Part shown: piece after piece, positions 414 to 8,976 of the stretch | Numbering within the stretch: the first letter of the stretch is position 1 | Layout: every line of letters starts with the position of its first letter | From: a virus | Taxonomy: Duplodnaviria > Heunggongvirae > Uroviricota > Caudoviricetes | Strand: one strand, 5' to 3' | IMG/VR virus record: IMGVR_UViG_2778261459_000009 | Span: 1-8,976 of that record | Length of the DNA: 8,976 nucleotides | Translations under genes and position numbers: made by a program | Notes under the pieces: model-generated | Databases searched by the model: none | What the model saw: only the letters and a program-made list of their open reading frames with translations | Told to the model about the DNA's origin: nothing

Positions 414-1770
<1,357 letters not shown>

Positions 1771-1933: not shown

Positions 1934-1964
1934 TGCTCTTAAAAATTAAGCCCTGAAGAAGGGC
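1934..1964 (+). promoter_or_regulatory. nutL: boxA-like element plus boxB hairpin
   Basis: tgctcttaa at 1934-1942 is boxA-like. GCCCTGAAGAAGGGC at 1950-1964 is the lambda nutL boxB (5-bp stem, GAAGA loop). It lies about 160 bp upstream of N. Confidence 0.8.
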
Positions 1965-2454: not shown

Positions 2455-3324
2455 ATGAAGAAAATTGATTACAAGTCCATACCAAAACCAATAGACTCAG
2501 CATCAGAGCGAAAAAAACACAAAAAAGAGGCTGAAAAATTAGCAAATTATATCAGTTTTATTAGAAACAATGCTCACGGCGATGGCGACAGGAAGTTGCT
2601 TTCAGATGCCCGGACCCAAGCGTTCAGTATACTTCGTAAGCAGATGCAATATCGTCTTCATCCTGGCTACATAATTGAAATTCGCCCGACTGAAAGACAA
2701 TTGTTCTTATTAAACTCTGTCTTTGACTTTGTAAACGTAGTTGGAGATCTTATCGACAGGTCTGTAGATAAGGCTCCTGATACAAATAGTTTTCTTCTAA
2801 CAAATAAAGAATACTTATATGGTAAATTTGGTATAAACGGATGGCAAAAATATGTACGATTCTTACGTGCATTCGTTGATGCGTATAAAAATTCCGACAT
2901 GATTTATACATATTTGCCTGGTGGTGATAATTGTACGCTTTCGGCAGACAATAGAATATTCATACCTATACTTGGTCTTGGGCTGATTAATGCAGTAAAT
3001 GAAAGAGATGTTATAATTGTTAAGCAGTGGCGAAAGCATGAGGGATATAGATATCTGCCATGCTTTGATATATTAAAAATACAGAATAAATTCTATGTAA
3101 AAATTAAATATAAAGAAGATGTTTTCTTCCTCAGAAAAAACAAAGATCTTTTACAAGAACTTTCTGGGACAATAGATGTCATCGTAGGTTCTAGGTTTAT
3201 AAAAGAACTGAAAGAAAGCAGGTCTTTCTCTCGTGTAGAGATAAGCGAGTCAGAGTTATGGGGTATATCAAATAATCCTGTAAACCACGCTCACCAACGA
3301 AATCCAAACAAAAAGTGGTCATAA
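2455..3324 (+). CDS. AT-rich cargo gene of unknown function (289 aa) immediately downstream of N, in the position of lambda sieB/ral; candidate superinfection-exclusion or defence protein
   Basis: A 293-codon ORF begins at 2443; the likely start is the ATG at 2455, with a GAGG ribosome-binding site at 2446-2449. The base composition is visibly lower in GC than the flanking N and cIII regions, with long runs of AAA/ATA codons. I see no transmembrane segment and no motif I can name. A hairpin terminator follows directly. Confidence 0.75.
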   Translation: MKKIDYKSIPKPIDSASERKKHKKEAEKLANYISFIRNNAHGDGDRKLLSDARTQAFSILRKQMQYRLHPGYIIEIRPTERQLFLLNSVFDFVNVVGDLIDRSVDKAPDTNSFLLTNKEYLYGKFGINGWQKYVRFLRAFVDAYKNSDMIYTYLPGGDNCTLSADNRIFIPILGLGLINAVNERDVIIVKQWRKHEGYRYLPCFDILKIQNKFYVKIKYKEDVFFLRKNKDLLQELSGTIDVIVGSRFIKELKESRSFSRVEISESELWGISNNPVNHAHQRNPNKKWS

Positions 3325-3349
3325 CCCGCTCAGGCGGGTTTCATTTTCA
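3323..3349 (+). terminator. Rho-independent terminator after the AT-rich gene
   Basis: Stem aacccgc (3323-3329) and gcgggtt (3334-3340) with loop tcag, followed by the T-rich run tcattttc. Confidence 0.6.
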
Positions 3350-3466: not shown

Positions 3467-3491
3467 GCCCTCCAGTGTGAGGGCCTTTTTA
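3467..3491 (+). terminator. Second terminator-like hairpin upstream of cIII (tL-like)
   Basis: Stem gccctc (3467-3472) and gagggc (3479-3484) with loop cagtgt, followed by cttttta. Confidence 0.5.
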
Positions 3492-3556
3492 TATGCATAC
3501 CAATAACGCTTCATTCGAGGCGTTTTCGTTATGCAATCAAATATAAGGAGTTACCC

Positions 3557-3691
3557 ATGATGCACTTTCAGCTCGCGGGTAGCGGCGTCATGTCCGCTTT
3601 CTACCCGCACGAATCTGAATTATCACGCCGAGTTAAACAATTAATCAGAGCAGCAAAGAAACAACTGGAGGCGTTATGCGCAATGAAATAG
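3557..3691 (+). CDS. cIII: CIII-like protein (44 aa), a putative FtsH-inhibiting lysogeny regulator
   Basis: MMHFQLAGSGVMSAFYPHESELSRRVKQLIRAAKKQLEALCAMK shares the AGxxVxxxPxESxLxRxxxxL pattern of the lambda CIII central amphipathic helix. An AAGGAG ribosome-binding site lies 6 nt upstream of the ATG at 3557. It is in the expected position downstream of N. The track ORF start at 3452 has no ribosome-binding site. Confidence 0.75.
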   Translation: MMHFQLAGSGVMSAFYPHESELSRRVKQLIRAAKKQLEALCAMK

Positions 3692-3828
3692 CAATCAATC
3701 ACCAGATGCTTCGTGCTGCACAGAACAAAGCAGTAATAGCCAGATTTATTGGTGATTCAAAAATGTGGCTTGAAGCAAATAAAGCGATGAAATCAGCTAT
3801 CAACCTTCCGTGGTATCGCAGGAAATGA
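3676..3828 (+). CDS. kil: Kil-like small protein (50 aa), a possible host cell-division inhibitor; not present in the supplied ORF track
   Basis: ATG at 3676 with a GGAGG ribosome-binding site 5 nt upstream, overlapping the cIII 3' end. The translation is MRNEIAINHQMLRAAQNKAVIARFIGDSKMWLEANKAMKSAINLPWYRRK. The FIGD-KM--EA core resembles my recollection of lambda Kil, and the gene follows cIII as kil does in lambda. Confidence 0.5.
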   Translation: MRNEIAINHQMLRAAQNKAVIARFIGDSKMWLEANKAMKSAINLPWYRRK

Positions 3829-3909
3829 GTTTTACAGACAACTGGTCAGACGAAGAATTCATTCGTCAGATGAACAAAATGCTCAATCAGCACAAAGAAC
3901 AGGAGAAAG

Positions 3910-4221
3910 ATGATGATTCTGACTCTGAATGATAAGCGTGAAATATCGCAAATAATCGCAAGTTTTACTGATGAAGATTACGAACGAATCAACAGTGAAG
4001 TTGATCGCCTCTGCAAACGTTGCGACCCAATAAGCGAAATGCTTCGCTCATATAAACCAGATGAACATACTAAGGATGCTATCGACTGGCTGGAAGATGA
4101 TGACTGTAACTATCAGGAAAAAGCCGCTGAATGGTTCTGGGATGCAATAACCGAAAGAGTTAAGGCTGAATATGCCTTCGCAATATTTAAACGCAGACAC
4201 ATTTTTGGAGAAGCTGCATGA
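3910..4221 (+). CDS. Acidic hypothetical protein (103 aa) with a CxxC pair, immediately upstream of recT
   Basis: An AGGAG ribosome-binding site lies 4-7 nt before the ATG at 3910/3913. The stop overlaps the recT start (ATGA at 4218-4221). The protein has about 24 Asp/Glu against about 15 Lys/Arg, and includes CKRC. Confidence 0.65.
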   Translation: MMILTLNDKREISQIIASFTDEDYERINSEVDRLCKRCDPISEMLRSYKPDEHTKDAIDWLEDDDCNYQEKAAEWFWDAITERVKAEYAFAIFKRRHIFGEAA

Positions 4222-5912: not shown

Positions 5913-5928
5913 CAAAGAGGAATTTACC

Positions 5929-6093
5929 ATGAGAGGACTTGCATACAATCCCGGCATTCTTCCGGCAGAAATGATTATTCGCCAACGCGTAAAGCCAATG
6001 CCATCGAGAGAGGAATTGCTTAAGAGAAATTCTTTTCCGTCAGTGAATCAAAACAAATATCTGAATGCGATGTGGCGGAGTGGGAAGAAATGA
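5929..6093 (+). CDS. Small hypothetical protein (54 aa), not in the supplied track; translationally coupled to the next gene
   Basis: ATG at 5929 with an AAAGAGG ribosome-binding site 7 nt upstream. The stop TGA at 6091-6093 overlaps the ATG at 6090-6092 of the downstream gene (ATGA). Confidence 0.45.
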
Positions 6094-6524
6094 AACAAAT
6101 GTCACTAATTGAGATGGATGGATTTCTGAAAGGTAGATGCATCCCACGAGATTTAAAGGTTAACGAAACAAACGCTGAATATCTGGTGCGTAAATTTGCT
6201 GAAGCGGAGGCCAAGTGCGCGGCGCTGGCAGCGGAGAATGCGGCAATGCATGAAACTATTGAAGCCGTTCGGAGTGTTGCGGATAACTCCAGTGGAATTG
6301 CCGGATGGCATTTGAATGGCGATATCGCTACATGGGAAGAGATTCTTCCTGAAATTAACGATATCGAAACCACAGCCACCGACGCTTTCCTGGCTGAAGT
6401 ACGGGCGAAGGGCGTGGAGATGGCTATGGAGCATATGCAGTCGAGCGGTTCGTTTTCATTTGGAGATTGCTACATATCACTTAACGAGTTCGCCGCCCAG
6501 CTTCGCAAAGGAGACAACCAGTGA
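6090..6524 (+). CDS. Hypothetical protein (144 aa)
   Basis: [15 protein letters not shown]..., with an Ala/Glu-rich helical centre. The track start at 6072 is a GTG; the ATG at 6090 is the better start because of the coupling overlap. Confidence 0.65.
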
Positions 6525-8201: not shown

Positions 8202-8478
8202 CCTGCAACTTGCCGTCAACGGTGAATACTTCGATGCCATGATTAGCGGAGAGAAAACGGAAGAGTATCGCCTGTGTAATGACTACTGGAATAAGCGAAT
8301 TATGTTCCGTGAGTATGACCGCCTGATTATCACAAAGGGATATCCGAAGCGCGACGATTCCAGCCGCAGAATTGATGTTCCGTATGACGGATATGAAATC
8401 AAGACAATCACACATCCGCACTTCGGTGATAAACCGGTAAAGGTGTTCGCGATAAAGGTGAATATAGGCAATGAATAA
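8194..8478 (+). CDS. ASCH-like (DUF3850-type) domain protein (about 94 aa)
   Basis: GTG at 8194 with an AGGAGG ribosome-binding site 6 nt upstream. The N-terminus ANLQLAVNGEYFDAMISGEKTEEYRLCND parallels the ...EYF.A..SG.KT.E.R.ND pattern of phage ASCH/DUF3850 proteins. The track ORF start at 8119 is an upstream extension through the preceding gene. Confidence 0.6.
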   Translation: MANLQLAVNGEYFDAMISGEKTEEYRLCNDYWNKRIMFREYDRLIITKGYPKRDDSSRRIDVPYDGYEIKTITHPHFGDKPVKVFAIKVNIGNE

Positions 8479-8550
8479 CAATCCTCGCACTCGCGGGGAT
8501 TTCTTTTATCTGAACTCGCTACGGCGGGTTTTATTTTATGGAGATGATAA

Positions 8551-8718
8551 ATGCACTTCCGAGTCACAGGTGAATGGAATGGAGAGCCATTCAACAGAGT
8601 TATCGAAGCAGAGAACATCAATGACTGCTATGACCACTGGATGCTATGGGCGCAGATAGCACATGCAGACATAACCAATATTCGAATTGAAGAACTGAAA
8701 GAACACCAAGCCGCCTGA
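8551..8718 (+). CDS. Small hypothetical protein (55 aa), not in the supplied track
   Basis: ATG at 8551 with a GGAG ribosome-binding site 7 nt upstream. The translation is MHFRVTGEWNGEPFNRVIEAENINDCYDHWMLWAQIAHADITNIRIEELKEHQAA. The stop sits inside the terminator hairpin that follows. I prefer this to the overlapping track ORF 8471-8659, whose translation is low-complexity. Confidence 0.45.
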   Translation: MHFRVTGEWNGEPFNRVIEAENINDCYDHWMLWAQIAHADITNIRIEELKEHQAA

Positions 8719-8731
8719 TGGCGGTTTTTTA
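8710..8731 (+). terminator. Rho-independent terminator closing the early-left gene chain
   Basis: Stem gccgcc (8710-8715) and ggcgg (8720-8724) with loop tgat, followed by tttttt at 8725-8730. Confidence 0.65.
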
Positions 8732-8775
8732 TTACCTGATTTGCAGGTTCGATTCCCTATTCGGAGATAGCACTC

Positions 8776-8976
8776 ATGCAACACGAACTACAGCCTGATT
8801 CACTGGTTGATTTGAAATTCATCATGGCCGATACTGGCTTCGGTAAAACCTTCATCTACGACCGGATTAAGTCCGGCGACCTGCCAAAAGCCAAAGTTAT
8901 CCACGGGCGAGCAAGATGGTTATATCGTGACCATTGTGAATTCAAAAATAAGCTCTTAAGCCGCGCCAATGGGTAA
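8776..8976 (+). CDS. xis: AlpA/Xis-family excisionase-like DNA-binding protein (66 aa)
   Basis: DLKFIMADTGFGKTFIYDRIKSGDLPKAKVIHGRARWLYRDHCEFKNKL has the winged-helix pattern of AlpA-type prophage excisionases. The stop codon is the last three bases of the window, which is where an integrase gene would be expected to follow. Confidence 0.7.
   Translation: MQHELQPDSLVDLKFIMADTGFGKTFIYDRIKSGDLPKAKVIHGRARWLYRDHCEFKNKLLSRANG

What the first reader, a model, noticed from the sequence alone, without database searches (positions are those of the whole stretch)
3676..3828. Plausible small genes missing from the ORF track: kil-like (3676-3828), a 54-aa ORF (5929-6093) and a 55-aa ORF (8551-8718)
Each of the three has a ribosome-binding site at proper spacing and fits the operon architecture. 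The first overlaps the cIII 3' end and has a Kil-like FIGD-KM--EA core. The second has an ATGA overlap with the next gene. The third ends inside a hairpin terminator. All are below typical ORF-calling length thresholds.
Basis: partly seen in the sequence, partly recalled or inferred. Interest (0 to 1): 0.4.

Follow-up and report, generated by a model that had tools for sequence, protein, structure and literature searches.

The report
Three known small lambdoid phage genes
The three short reading frames are real, conserved genes of lambda-like phages (the cell-division inhibitor Kil, a DUF2737 protein and lambda Orf55), but all three have been named and annotated in public records for decades, so the finding is correct and ordinary.

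Summary
The window is the leftward early (pL) operon of a mosaic lambdoid prophage. It combines a phage 434-type immunity region with an HK022/HK97/Sf6-type cIII-kil pair, a RecT module and a TorI-type excisionase.

- **ORF 3676-3828:** 100% identical to the 50-aa Kil of HK022, HK97 and Sf6. It hits Pfam Lambda_Kil (E 1.7e-20), and NCBI's annotation pipeline (PGAP) names it "host cell division inhibitory peptide Kil".
- **ORF 5929-6093:** 100% identical to HK620 hkaI and hits Pfam DUF2737 (E 2.6e-31).
- **ORF 8551-8718:** the homologue of lambda/434 ORF55 (96% identity, PHROG family phrog_676). Its stop codon lies in the loop of a rho-independent terminator, as already annotated in phage HK140.

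In 119 loci chosen by a neighbouring DNA anchor, the proposed frame has the lowest pN/pS of all six frames: 0.03, 0.29 and 0.27 respectively. Intact homologues occur in other genera.

Function is inferred. Kil most likely blocks FtsZ-ring assembly, as lambda Kil does. Orf55 has a confident beta-beta-alpha-beta fold that only weakly resembles T7 Gp2. DUF2737 has no supportable mechanism.

Verdict: observation confirmed, interpretation supported, already known, low interest.

The parts
1950..1964 (+). nutL boxB (GCCCTGAAGAAGGGC). This is context: it makes downstream pL transcription N-antiterminated.
   Evidence: Read directly from the sequence. The position matches the nutL stem-loop annotated in phage 434.
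2123..2446 (+). Antiterminator N (context)
   Evidence: Matches the 324-nt N CDS of phage 434 within the 98% identical block.
3323..3340 (+). Terminator-like hairpin upstream of cIII/kil. Two more follow at 3467-3484 and 3505-3524.
   Evidence: Terminator scan. Folds at -11.8 kcal/mol, z -4.86.
3557..3691 (+). cIII (44 aa, HK022/P22 type)
   Evidence: Pfam cIII PF08134 E 2e-30 and phrog_550. Same length as the HK022 'cIII gene product (AA 1-44)'.
3667..3671 (+). Shine-Dalgarno GGAGG for kil, located inside cIII
   Evidence: Sequence. An RBS is annotated at the same relative place in X16093.
3676..3828 (+). kil: 50-aa Kil peptide with a predicted helix, G26-D27 turn, helix core
   Evidence: Pfam Lambda_Kil 72.6 bits against a cut-off of 27.6; phrog_2055 E 1.2e-35. 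100% identical to Kil of HK022, HK97, Sf6 and CUS-3. PGAP annotates it as kil. All 66 DNA alleles are intact, with pN/pS 0.03.
3825..3932 (+). Candidate fourth small gene (35 aa), whose start overlaps the kil stop in the sequence ATGA. Its C-terminus is chimeric.
   Evidence: N-terminus matches phrog_17766 (E 5e-16) and phrog_2123. The first 16-17 aa are conserved across the cIII-anchored loci, and homology breaks at 3874. PGAP does not annotate it in L001.
5915..5921 (+). Shine-Dalgarno AAGAGGA for the DUF2737 gene
   Evidence: Sequence.
5929..6093 (+). DUF2737 family gene (54 aa), equivalent to HK620 hkaI and the HK97 gp38 homologue
   Evidence: Pfam PF10930 107.7 bits against a cut-off of 25; phrog_1117 E 4e-38. 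100% identical to HK620 hkaI. pN/pS 0.29, the lowest of six frames. Homologues occur in P22-like phages and virulent Jersey-type phages.
6090..6524 (+). Next gene, with its start overlapping the DUF2737 stop in ATGA (phrog_614, function unknown)
   Evidence: The same 4-nt overlap is annotated.
8480..8501 (+). Terminator hairpin at the position of 434 't-L4'. A second hairpin lies at 8512-8531.
   Evidence: Terminator scan. Folds at -13.1 and -11.0 kcal/mol, z -4.7 and -5.0. t-L4 is annotated upstream of ORF55 in M60848.
8540..8543 (+). Shine-Dalgarno GGAG for orf55
   Evidence: Sequence. An RBS is annotated at the same place in phage 434.
8551..8718 (+). orf55 (55 aa), the homologue of lambda orf55/lambdap35 and 434 ORF55
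   Evidence: phrog_676 E 9.4e-40. 96.4% identical to lambda and 434. pN/pS 0.27. AlphaFold2 model with pLDDT 90.6 and a beta-beta-alpha-beta fold.
8708..8733 (+). Rho-independent terminator (stem 8708-8727 plus U tract) with the orf55 stop codon in its loop
   Evidence: Annotated as a rho-independent terminator over the same 3' end in HK140. It forms a mosaic boundary at 8733.

Best explanation
These are three ordinary accessory genes of the N-antiterminated pL (early-left) operon of a mosaic lambdoid prophage. All three would be transcribed on induction or infection, once N at nutL lets RNA polymerase read through the tL-type terminators.

1. **kil (3676-3828).** It encodes a 50-aa helix-turn-helix peptide of the Lambda_Kil family. 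Its start lies inside the 3' end of cIII. By homology to lambda Kil it most likely disrupts FtsZ-ring assembly in a ZipA-dependent way, giving transient filamentation of the host during lytic growth. This step is inferred.

2. **DUF2737 gene (5929-6093).** It encodes a small basic protein. Its stop overlaps the start of the next gene by 4 nt, so the two are probably translationally coupled. It is a conserved phage accessory protein of unknown biochemical activity. My best guess is that it binds and modulates a host factor, but I hold that guess with low confidence.

3. **orf55 (8551-8718).** This is the lambda Orf55 homologue, the last gene of the exo-xis region. It sits between a tL4-like terminator pair and a terminator that contains its own stop codon. 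It folds as a compact beta-beta-alpha-beta domain. It probably acts by binding a host protein, possibly RNA polymerase as published modelling of lambda Orf55 proposes, and it lies in the lambda region linked to inhibition of host replication initiation. The target is speculative.

Shown here: gene reality, family membership, operon context and purifying selection. Inferred: all biochemical functions.
For: **Family matches.**
- Pfam: Lambda_Kil E 1.7e-20 and DUF2737 E 2.6e-31.
- PHROGs: phrog_2055 'Kil protein for bacterial septation inhibition' 1.2e-35, phrog_1117 4.1e-38, phrog_676 9.4e-40.

**Identity to named genes.**
- HK022 kil (AA 1-50), with its RBS annotated.
- HK620 hkaI.
- 434 ORF55 and lambda lambdap35.
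- RefSeq annotates all three as CDS in E. coli FDN-24, including the gene name kil.

**Selection.** In 119 IMG/VR loci selected by a 20-nt DNA anchor in cIII, so not selected on these proteins, the proposed frame has the lowest pN/pS of six frames:
- kil 0.029, with 66/66 alleles intact.
- DUF2737 0.29, with 33/36 intact.
- orf55 0.27, with 27/29 intact.
- Every high-frequency kil polymorphism (carried by 25-52 of the 115 loci) is synonymous; the only recurrent amino-acid changes are rarer.

**Breadth.** Intact homologues of similar length occur in Cronobacter, Serratia, Salmonella, Morganella and a phage named for Pseudomonas.

**Operon context.** A 434-type pL/nutL/N block lies upstream, with hairpin terminators at 3323, 3467, 3505, 8480, 8512 and 8708.

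**Kil mechanism.** Lambda Kil blocks cytokinesis through ZipA-dependent inhibition of FtsZ assembly (PMC3961180). Activity needs the helix, G-D turn, helix core (PMC11762379). That core aligns at 53% identity with residues 10-39 here.

**Orf55.** The AlphaFold2 model has pLDDT 90.6. The best Foldseek hit in PDB is T7 Gp2 bound to E. coli RNA polymerase: 4lk0_M, probability 0.99, TM 0.58-0.61. This reproduces the published modelling of lambda Orf55 (PMC8614690). Lambda orf55 is listed among the genes implicated in blocking host replication initiation (PMC9239242).
Against: **Function of this Kil type is untested.** I found no experiment on the 50-aa HK022-type Kil. Its C-terminal third (KSAINLPWYRRK) is unrelated to that of lambda Kil. 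It lacks the RSK/RSSK motif that PMC11762379 finds in nearly all lambda Kil homologues and suspects to be functionally important.

**The Orf55-Gp2 link is weak.**
- No Foldseek hit reaches E <= 0.001.
- No sequence-level link exists.

**DUF2737 gave no usable model.** pLDDT was 62 and pTM 0.21, and there is no PDB relative, so its mechanism is a guess.

**Limits of the pN/pS figures.** They come from closely related, non-independent alleles, many of them singletons that may be sequencing errors.

**Part of the orf55 conservation may be non-coding.** Its last 47 nt plus the terminator persist in some loci without a start codon. Conservation there may reflect the terminator or a recombination joint.

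**No expression data were examined.** No transcript or peptide data exist for this prophage.
Confidence: 0.9

Rival explanations
1. One or more of the three ORFs is a chance open frame, or is conserved only because of overlapping non-coding signals. For orf55 those signals would be the terminator and a mosaic recombination joint. For the 5' end of kil it would be the cIII 3' end. On this reading no functional peptide is made.
For: The window holds 104 ORFs of at least 30 aa. The last 47 nt of orf55 plus its terminator survive in about 10 loci where no start codon precedes them. DUF2737 folds poorly in AlphaFold2. No expression data were examined for this prophage.
Against: Profile E-values run from 1e-20 to 1e-40. 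The proposed frame has the lowest pN/pS of the six frames for each ORF. Synonymous polymorphisms occur throughout kil, including codon 7 upstream of the internal Met. Amino-acid-level conservation extends to different genera and to virulent phages with unrelated flanks. The orf55 fold is confident at pLDDT 90.6.
Confidence: 0.03
2. The 50-aa HK022-type Kil is a true homologue of lambda Kil but acts on a different or additional target. It might be ZipA-independent, or it might hit elongation as Rac KilR does, because its C-terminal segment is unrelated to that of lambda Kil.
For: Only residues 10-39 align with lambda Kil. The C-terminus lacks RSK/RSSK and ends in LPWYRRK (PMC11762379 links that motif to full activity). 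Other prophage 'Kil' proteins have dual targets (KilR, PMC12482147).
Against: The experimentally essential part of lambda Kil is the helix-turn-helix core, which is conserved here, including the G-D turn (PMC11762379). A short HK629 Kil' lacking most of the C-terminus still disrupts Z rings with ZipA dependence (PMC11762379). The C-terminus here is still basic (RRK).
Confidence: 0.15
3. Orf55 is a T7 Gp2-like inhibitor that binds the beta-prime jaw of host RNA polymerase and damps sigma-70 transcription early in lytic growth.
For: The best Foldseek PDB hits are Gp2 in the E. coli holoenzyme (4lk0_M, 4llg) and the RNA-polymerase-binding YkzG/epsilon subunit. The same proposal has been published for lambda Orf55, with R45 matching one of the two key Gp2 arginines (PMC8614690). 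The window protein keeps N43 and R45.
Confidence: 0.15

Closest known systems
Kil of phages HK022 / HK97 / Sf6 (gene 31) / CUS-3 (PHROG phrog_2055; RefSeq WP_001243355.1 'host cell division inhibitory peptide Kil')
   Same: 100% amino-acid identity over all 50 residues. Same 16-nt overlap with a 44-aa cIII and the same RBS.
   Different: Nothing in the gene itself. Only the surrounding mosaic differs: a 434-type immunity region upstream and a RecT rather than an Erf module downstream.
Bacteriophage lambda / 434 Kil (47 aa; Pfam PF06301; FtsZ inhibitor requiring ZipA)
   Same: Same family: 72.6 bits against a gathering score of 27.6. Same place in the pL operon, overlapping the cIII 3' end. 53% identity over the helix, GD turn, helix core (FIGDxKM..EA).
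   Different: A 7-residue N-terminal extension. An unrelated C-terminal third that lacks the RSK/RSSK motif. The activity of this type has not been tested directly, as far as I could find.
HK620 hkaI / HK97 gp38 homologue (Pfam DUF2737, PHROG phrog_1117)
   Same: 100% identity to hkaI. Same 4-nt overlap with the downstream gene. Same location between the recombination genes and the ea genes.
   Different: The neighbouring genes differ: here a D5-like regulator fragment lies upstream and a phrog_614 protein downstream. The 'tL3' terminator that the HK620 record places inside hkaI is not a significant hairpin here.
Lambda orf55 (lambdap35) / phage 434 ORF55 (PHROG phrog_676)
   Same: 96.4% identity. 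Last gene before the excisionase. Preceded by a tL4-type terminator and ending in a rho-independent terminator. Predicted beta-beta-alpha-beta fold matching the published model (PMC8614690).
   Different: It is followed here by a TorI-type (KplE1/HK620-like) excisionase rather than lambda Xis. 434 has an extra ORF114 in between.
T7 Gp2 (inhibitor of host RNA polymerase)
   Same: Similar size and beta-beta-alpha-beta topology. It is the best Foldseek PDB hit for the Orf55 model.
   Different: No detectable sequence relationship. The structural scores are weak and not specific. Only one of the two critical arginines is kept (PMC8614690).

Membership tests
Lambda_Kil (Pfam PF06301) | Profile HMM score above the curated gathering threshold | tested here: met
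   72.6 bits against a cut-off of 27.6, E 1.7e-20, covering the whole 31-position model. Also phrog_2055 at 1.2e-35.
Lambda_Kil (Pfam PF06301) | Helix, Gly-Asp turn, helix core (lambda residues 4-38; F-I-G-D-x-K-M motif) that is essential for activity | tested here: met
   Residues 10-39 align with lambda/434 Kil residues 3-32 at 16/30 identities, with FIGD conserved (G26-D27). The requirement for the core comes from PMC11762379. I did not model this peptide's structure.
Lambda_Kil (Pfam PF06301) | Position in the pL operon immediately after, and overlapping, the 3' end of cIII | tested here: met
   cIII 3557-3691 (Pfam cIII, E 2e-30) and kil 3676-3828 give a 16-nt overlap. The arrangement is the same in HK022 and 434.
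Lambda_Kil (Pfam PF06301) | C-terminal RSK/RSSK motif, reported in nearly all lambda Kil homologues | tested here: not met
   The C-terminus is ...AINLPWYRRK. It is basic but has no RSK or RSSK (motif from PMC11762379). This motif is not a formal family criterion.
Lambda_Kil (Pfam PF06301) | Expression causes filamentation through ZipA-dependent disruption of FtsZ rings | not testable with these tools
   Requires expression in E. coli. Known for lambda and HK629 Kil (PMC3961180, PMC11762379).
DUF2737 (Pfam PF10930) | Profile HMM score above the gathering threshold over the full model | tested here: met
   107.7 bits against a cut-off of 25, covering model positions 1-52 of 53. 139 database relatives all carry PF10930.
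DUF2737 (Pfam PF10930) | Conserved C-terminal motif [11 protein letters not shown]...NKYLN.MW shared with virulent Jersey-type phages | tested here: met
   Alignment A2/A4 has invariant L31 K32 R33 F36 N40 Y44 L45. The SETP7 homologue reads ...[23 protein letters not shown]....
Lambda Orf55 (PHROG phrog_676) | Full-length profile match and high identity to lambda/434 ORF55 | tested here: met
   E 9.4e-40 over positions 1-55 of 55. 96.4% identity to lambda and 434.
Lambda Orf55 (PHROG phrog_676) | Last gene of the exo-xis region, just upstream of the excisionase and flanked by terminators | tested here: met
   Hairpins at 8480-8501 and 8512-8531, orf55 at 8551-8718, hairpin at 8708-8727, then the TorI-type excisionase at 8776.
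Lambda Orf55 (PHROG phrog_676) | Three-strand, one-helix alpha/beta fold as in the published model | tested here: met
   AlphaFold2 pLDDT 90.6, with strands E2-9, E12-19 and E41-49 and helix H23-37. This agrees with PMC8614690.
T7 Gp2-type RNA polymerase inhibitors | Sequence-level relationship to Gp2 | tested here: not met
   No Pfam hit at E <= 1. A profile search of PDB sequences does not find Gp2 at E <= 10.
T7 Gp2-type RNA polymerase inhibitors | Specific structural similarity to Gp2 | tested here: inconclusive
T7 Gp2-type RNA polymerase inhibitors | Binding to the RNA polymerase beta-prime jaw and inhibition of transcription | not testable with these tools
   Needs biochemistry.

The most novel reading that the evidence does not exclude
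The most novel reading not excluded is that Orf55 (8551-8718) is a Gp2-like small protein that binds host RNA polymerase. [quoted passage not shown] A secondary possibility is that the HK022-type Kil, with its different C-terminus, inhibits division by a ZipA-independent route. Neither idea originates with this window, since the Orf55 proposal is already published as a model. This window adds only a 96% identical copy.
Probability: 0.15. Interest if true: 0.4.

Novelty: already known. Interest (0 to 1): 0.08.

Why it matters
The finding matters mainly as an annotation check. It shows that a 60-aa ORF threshold hides real, conserved phage genes, and that this window carries a full set of pL accessory genes. 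Kil-type peptides are of some applied interest as natural FtsZ inhibitors. The HK022-type Kil, DUF2737 and Orf55 all still lack direct functional data, so they remain reasonable targets for small-protein studies. Nothing here changes what is known about them.

Tried and rejected
- **NCBIfam:** no hit for any of the three peptides at E <= 1, even though PGAP names kil. PGAP presumably names it by another rule type.
- **Rfam:** no match in the whole window at E <= 1, so no known RNA family explains the conservation.
- **First allele sets:** protein-based searches of IMG/VR returned only the 80 best hits each, at 96-100% amino-acid identity. These were therefore selected for protein conservation. 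I discarded them as a selection test and replaced them with 119 loci anchored on a 20-nt DNA word in cIII.
- **DUF2737 structure:** pLDDT 62 and pTM 0.21, too poor for a fold search, so none was run.
- **PDB sequence searches:** nothing meaningful for any of the three.
- **HK620 'tL3' inside hkaI:** the equivalent window stretch 6010-6045 folds no better than shuffles (z +0.33).
- **Source of the window:** no phage record and no complete E. coli genome covers 80% or more of the window in one piece. The window is a new combination of common modules.
- **Lambda ribosome-profiling paper (PMC3718152):** not held in the library, so I could not check translation of lambda orf55 or kil there.

Full report
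**What the window is.**
- Reading the sequence and listing ORFs shows a lambdoid early region with the leftward pL operon on the + strand.
- Bases 1 to about 3400 are 98% identical to phage 434. By the 434 annotation they hold cII and cro on the minus strand, then the 434 repressor, hex, oL/pL, nutL (boxB at 1950-1964), N (2123-2446) and a 289-aa protein with a Nun-like C-terminal peptide.
- From about 3400 onward the sequence matches HK022, HK97, Sf6 and HK620-type phages. The order is cIII, kil, a RecT/Gp157 recombination module, a string of small 'ea'-type genes, orf55, and a TorI-type excisionase at 8776-8976.
- No phage record or complete E. coli genome covers 80% of the window in one piece. 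It is therefore a new combination of common modules.

**Checking the observation: ORF 3676-3828 (50 aa).**
- GGAGG at 3667-3671 lies 4 nt before the ATG.
- The ORF overlaps the last 16 nt of cIII (3557-3691; Pfam cIII, E 2e-30).
- Its core, FIGDSKMWLEA, matches FIGDEKMFREA of lambda/434 Kil.

**Checking the observation: ORF 5929-6093 (54 aa).**
- AAGAGGA lies upstream, with 8 nt from the GAGG core to the start.
- Its TGA stop overlaps the ATG at 6090 of the next gene.

**Checking the observation: ORF 8551-8718 (55 aa).**
- GGAG lies 7 nt upstream.
- Its UGA stop is part of the loop of an 8-bp hairpin (8708-8727) followed by a U run. The hairpin folds at -13 kcal/mol, z -3.75, and none of 200 shuffles folds as well.

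All three ORFs are below the 60-aa default of the ORF lister. That is presumably why an ORF track omitted them.

**What the ORFs are.**
- *ORF 3676-3828* hits Pfam Lambda_Kil at 72.6 bits (cut-off 27.6) and PHROG phrog_2055, 'Kil protein for bacterial septation inhibition', at 1.2e-35.
  - It is 100% identical to the Kil of HK022, HK97, Sf6 (gene 31), CUS-3 and others.
  - The HK022 record X16093 already annotates 'kil gene product (AA 1-50)' with its ribosome-binding site and the same overlap with a 44-aa cIII.
  - RefSeq E. coli genomes carry it as gene kil, 'host cell division inhibitory peptide Kil'.
- *ORF 5929-6093* hits Pfam DUF2737 at 107.7 bits (cut-off 25) and phrog_1117.
  - It is 100% identical to hkaI of HK620.
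  - It is annotated 'DUF2737 family protein' throughout NCBI.
- *ORF 8551-8718* has no Pfam family but matches phrog_676 at 9.4e-40.
  - It is 96.4% identical to ORF55 of phage 434 (M60848) and to lambda lambdap35/orf55.

**Frame conservation.**
- My first sets of relatives came from protein-based searches that keep only the best 80 hits. They were therefore biased towards identical proteins, and I did not rely on them.
- Instead I collected 119 IMG/VR loci through a 20-nt DNA word at the start of cIII. I then extracted whatever lay at the three positions.

| ORF | Unique DNA alleles | Intact alleles | pN/pS against the window |
|---|---|---|---|
| kil | 66 | 66 | 0.029 |
| DUF2737 | 36 | 33 | 0.29 |
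| orf55 | 29 | 27 | 0.27 |

- In each case the proposed frame gives the lowest value of all six frames. The next lowest is the antisense frame that shares third codon positions, as expected.
- Every kil polymorphism carried by 25-52 of the 115 loci is synonymous. One lies in codon 7, upstream of the internal Met-11, which supports the start at 3676. The recurrent amino-acid changes are rarer: L44I in 11 loci, A37E in 6 and A6V in 3.
- These alleles are closely related and not independent, and many singletons may be sequencing errors. The numbers are indicative rather than formal tests.
- Independent support comes from distant homologues that keep an intact ORF of similar size:
  - kil in Cronobacter phage ENT47670 (51 aa, unannotated in its RefSeq record) and Serratia phage Eta;
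  - DUF2737 in a P22-like phage and in the virulent Jerseyvirus SETP7, which again has the 4-nt overlap with the next gene;
  - orf55 in Morganella phage IME1369_01 and in a phage named for Pseudomonas.

**How Kil most likely works.**
- The operon context is shown directly. All three genes lie downstream of pL, nutL and N, and behind hairpin terminators at 3323, 3467, 3505, 8480 and 8512. Their expression should therefore be delayed-early and dependent on N.
- The Kil mechanism is inferred from lambda. Lambda Kil blocks cytokinesis through ZipA-dependent inhibition of FtsZ assembly (PMC3961180). Its activity needs the helix, G19-D20 turn, helix core (PMC11762379).
- The window peptide conserves that core at 53% identity, with the turn at G26-D27.
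- It has 7 extra N-terminal residues and an unrelated C-terminal third ending in LPWYRRK. [quoted passage not shown] I found no direct test of this Kil type.

**How Orf55 most likely works.**
- AlphaFold2 with a 16-sequence alignment gives a confident beta-beta-alpha-beta model, pLDDT 90.6.
- Foldseek's best PDB hits are T7 Gp2 bound to E. coli RNA polymerase, the RNA-polymerase epsilon subunit YkzG, and phage p56. These are the same three reported for lambda Orf55 in PMC8614690.
- Lambda orf55 is also listed among the exo-xis genes implicated in inhibiting host replication initiation (PMC9239242).
- I therefore treat 'small host-protein binder, possibly of RNA polymerase' as a low-confidence guess.

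**DUF2737.** The model was poor, with pLDDT 62, and nothing in PDB resembles it by sequence. I can offer only a generic guess: a basic accessory peptide that is probably translationally coupled to the next gene.

**Comparison with known systems and verdict.**
- Each ORF is a member of a described family, and two of the three are identical to genes named between 1989 and 2001.
The novelty class is 'already known' and the interest is low.
- The open points are functional, not genomic: the target of the HK022-type Kil, and any activity of DUF2737 and Orf55.

**Seen in passing.**
- A fourth small ORF (3825-3932, 35 aa) starts in an ATGA overlap with the kil stop. Its first 16-17 residues are conserved across the cIII-anchored loci, with two alternative C-termini. 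Homology breaks at 3874, inside the ORF. PGAP does not annotate it.
- orf55 behaves as a mosaic cassette, with recurrent homology breaks at 8553, 8672 and 8733.
- The window has a run of nine G at 706-714, where phage 434 has five. The run lies between the pRM -10 element and its start site.

Noticed in passing
window 3825-3932 (+): A 35-aa ORF starts in an ATGA overlap with the kil stop. Its first 16-17 residues (MSFTDNWSDEEFIRQMK) are conserved in the cIII-anchored loci. After that there are two alternative C-termini: the 35-aa form seen here next to RecT modules, and a 52/56-aa form next to Erf modules (phrog_2123/phrog_17766). The homology break at 3874 lies inside the ORF. PGAP does not annotate it in E. 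coli FDN-24.
   Followed up: partly
window 706-714: A run of nine G where phage 434 has five and E. coli G749 has GGAGG. It lies between the annotated pRM -10 element and the pRM start site, upstream of the repressor gene. It could be a real promoter-spacing variant or a homopolymer sequencing error.
   Followed up: no
window 2455-3324 (+): A 289-aa gene directly after N, whose last 20 residues match the Nun-like transcription-termination peptide (phrog_5632, E 4e-5). The 434 record calls its homologue 'Nun C-terminal peptide-containing protein'.
   Followed up: no
window 8472-8733: orf55 behaves as a mosaic cassette. Homology with other prophages repeatedly breaks at about 8472-8476, 8553 (its start codon), 8672 and 8733 (the end of its terminator). 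About ten loci keep only the last 47 nt plus the terminator, with no start codon.
   Followed up: partly
window 8480-8531: Two tandem terminator-like hairpins (8480-8501 and 8512-8531, z -4.7 and -5.0) sit just upstream of orf55, at the position annotated 't-L4' in phage 434. orf55 is thus bracketed by terminators.
   Followed up: partly
window 8776-8976 (+) and beyond the window end: The last gene is a TorI-type excisionase (PGAP 'response regulator inhibitor TorI' in E. coli G749). In related prophages the integrase lies on the opposite strand, convergent with the pL operon, unlike lambda.
   Followed up: no
L367 (Cronobacter phage ENT47670, NC_019927.1) 501-656: An intact 51-aa kil homologue (63% identical) lies upstream of the same hypothetical-protein and RecT pair, but it is not annotated in the RefSeq record. 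This is a real case of a small gene missed by annotation.
   Followed up: partly
window 6010-6045 (inside the DUF2737 gene): The HK620 record places a terminator 'tL3' inside hkaI. The equivalent stretch here folds no better than shuffled sequence (z +0.33), so that annotation is not supported by structure.
   Followed up: yes
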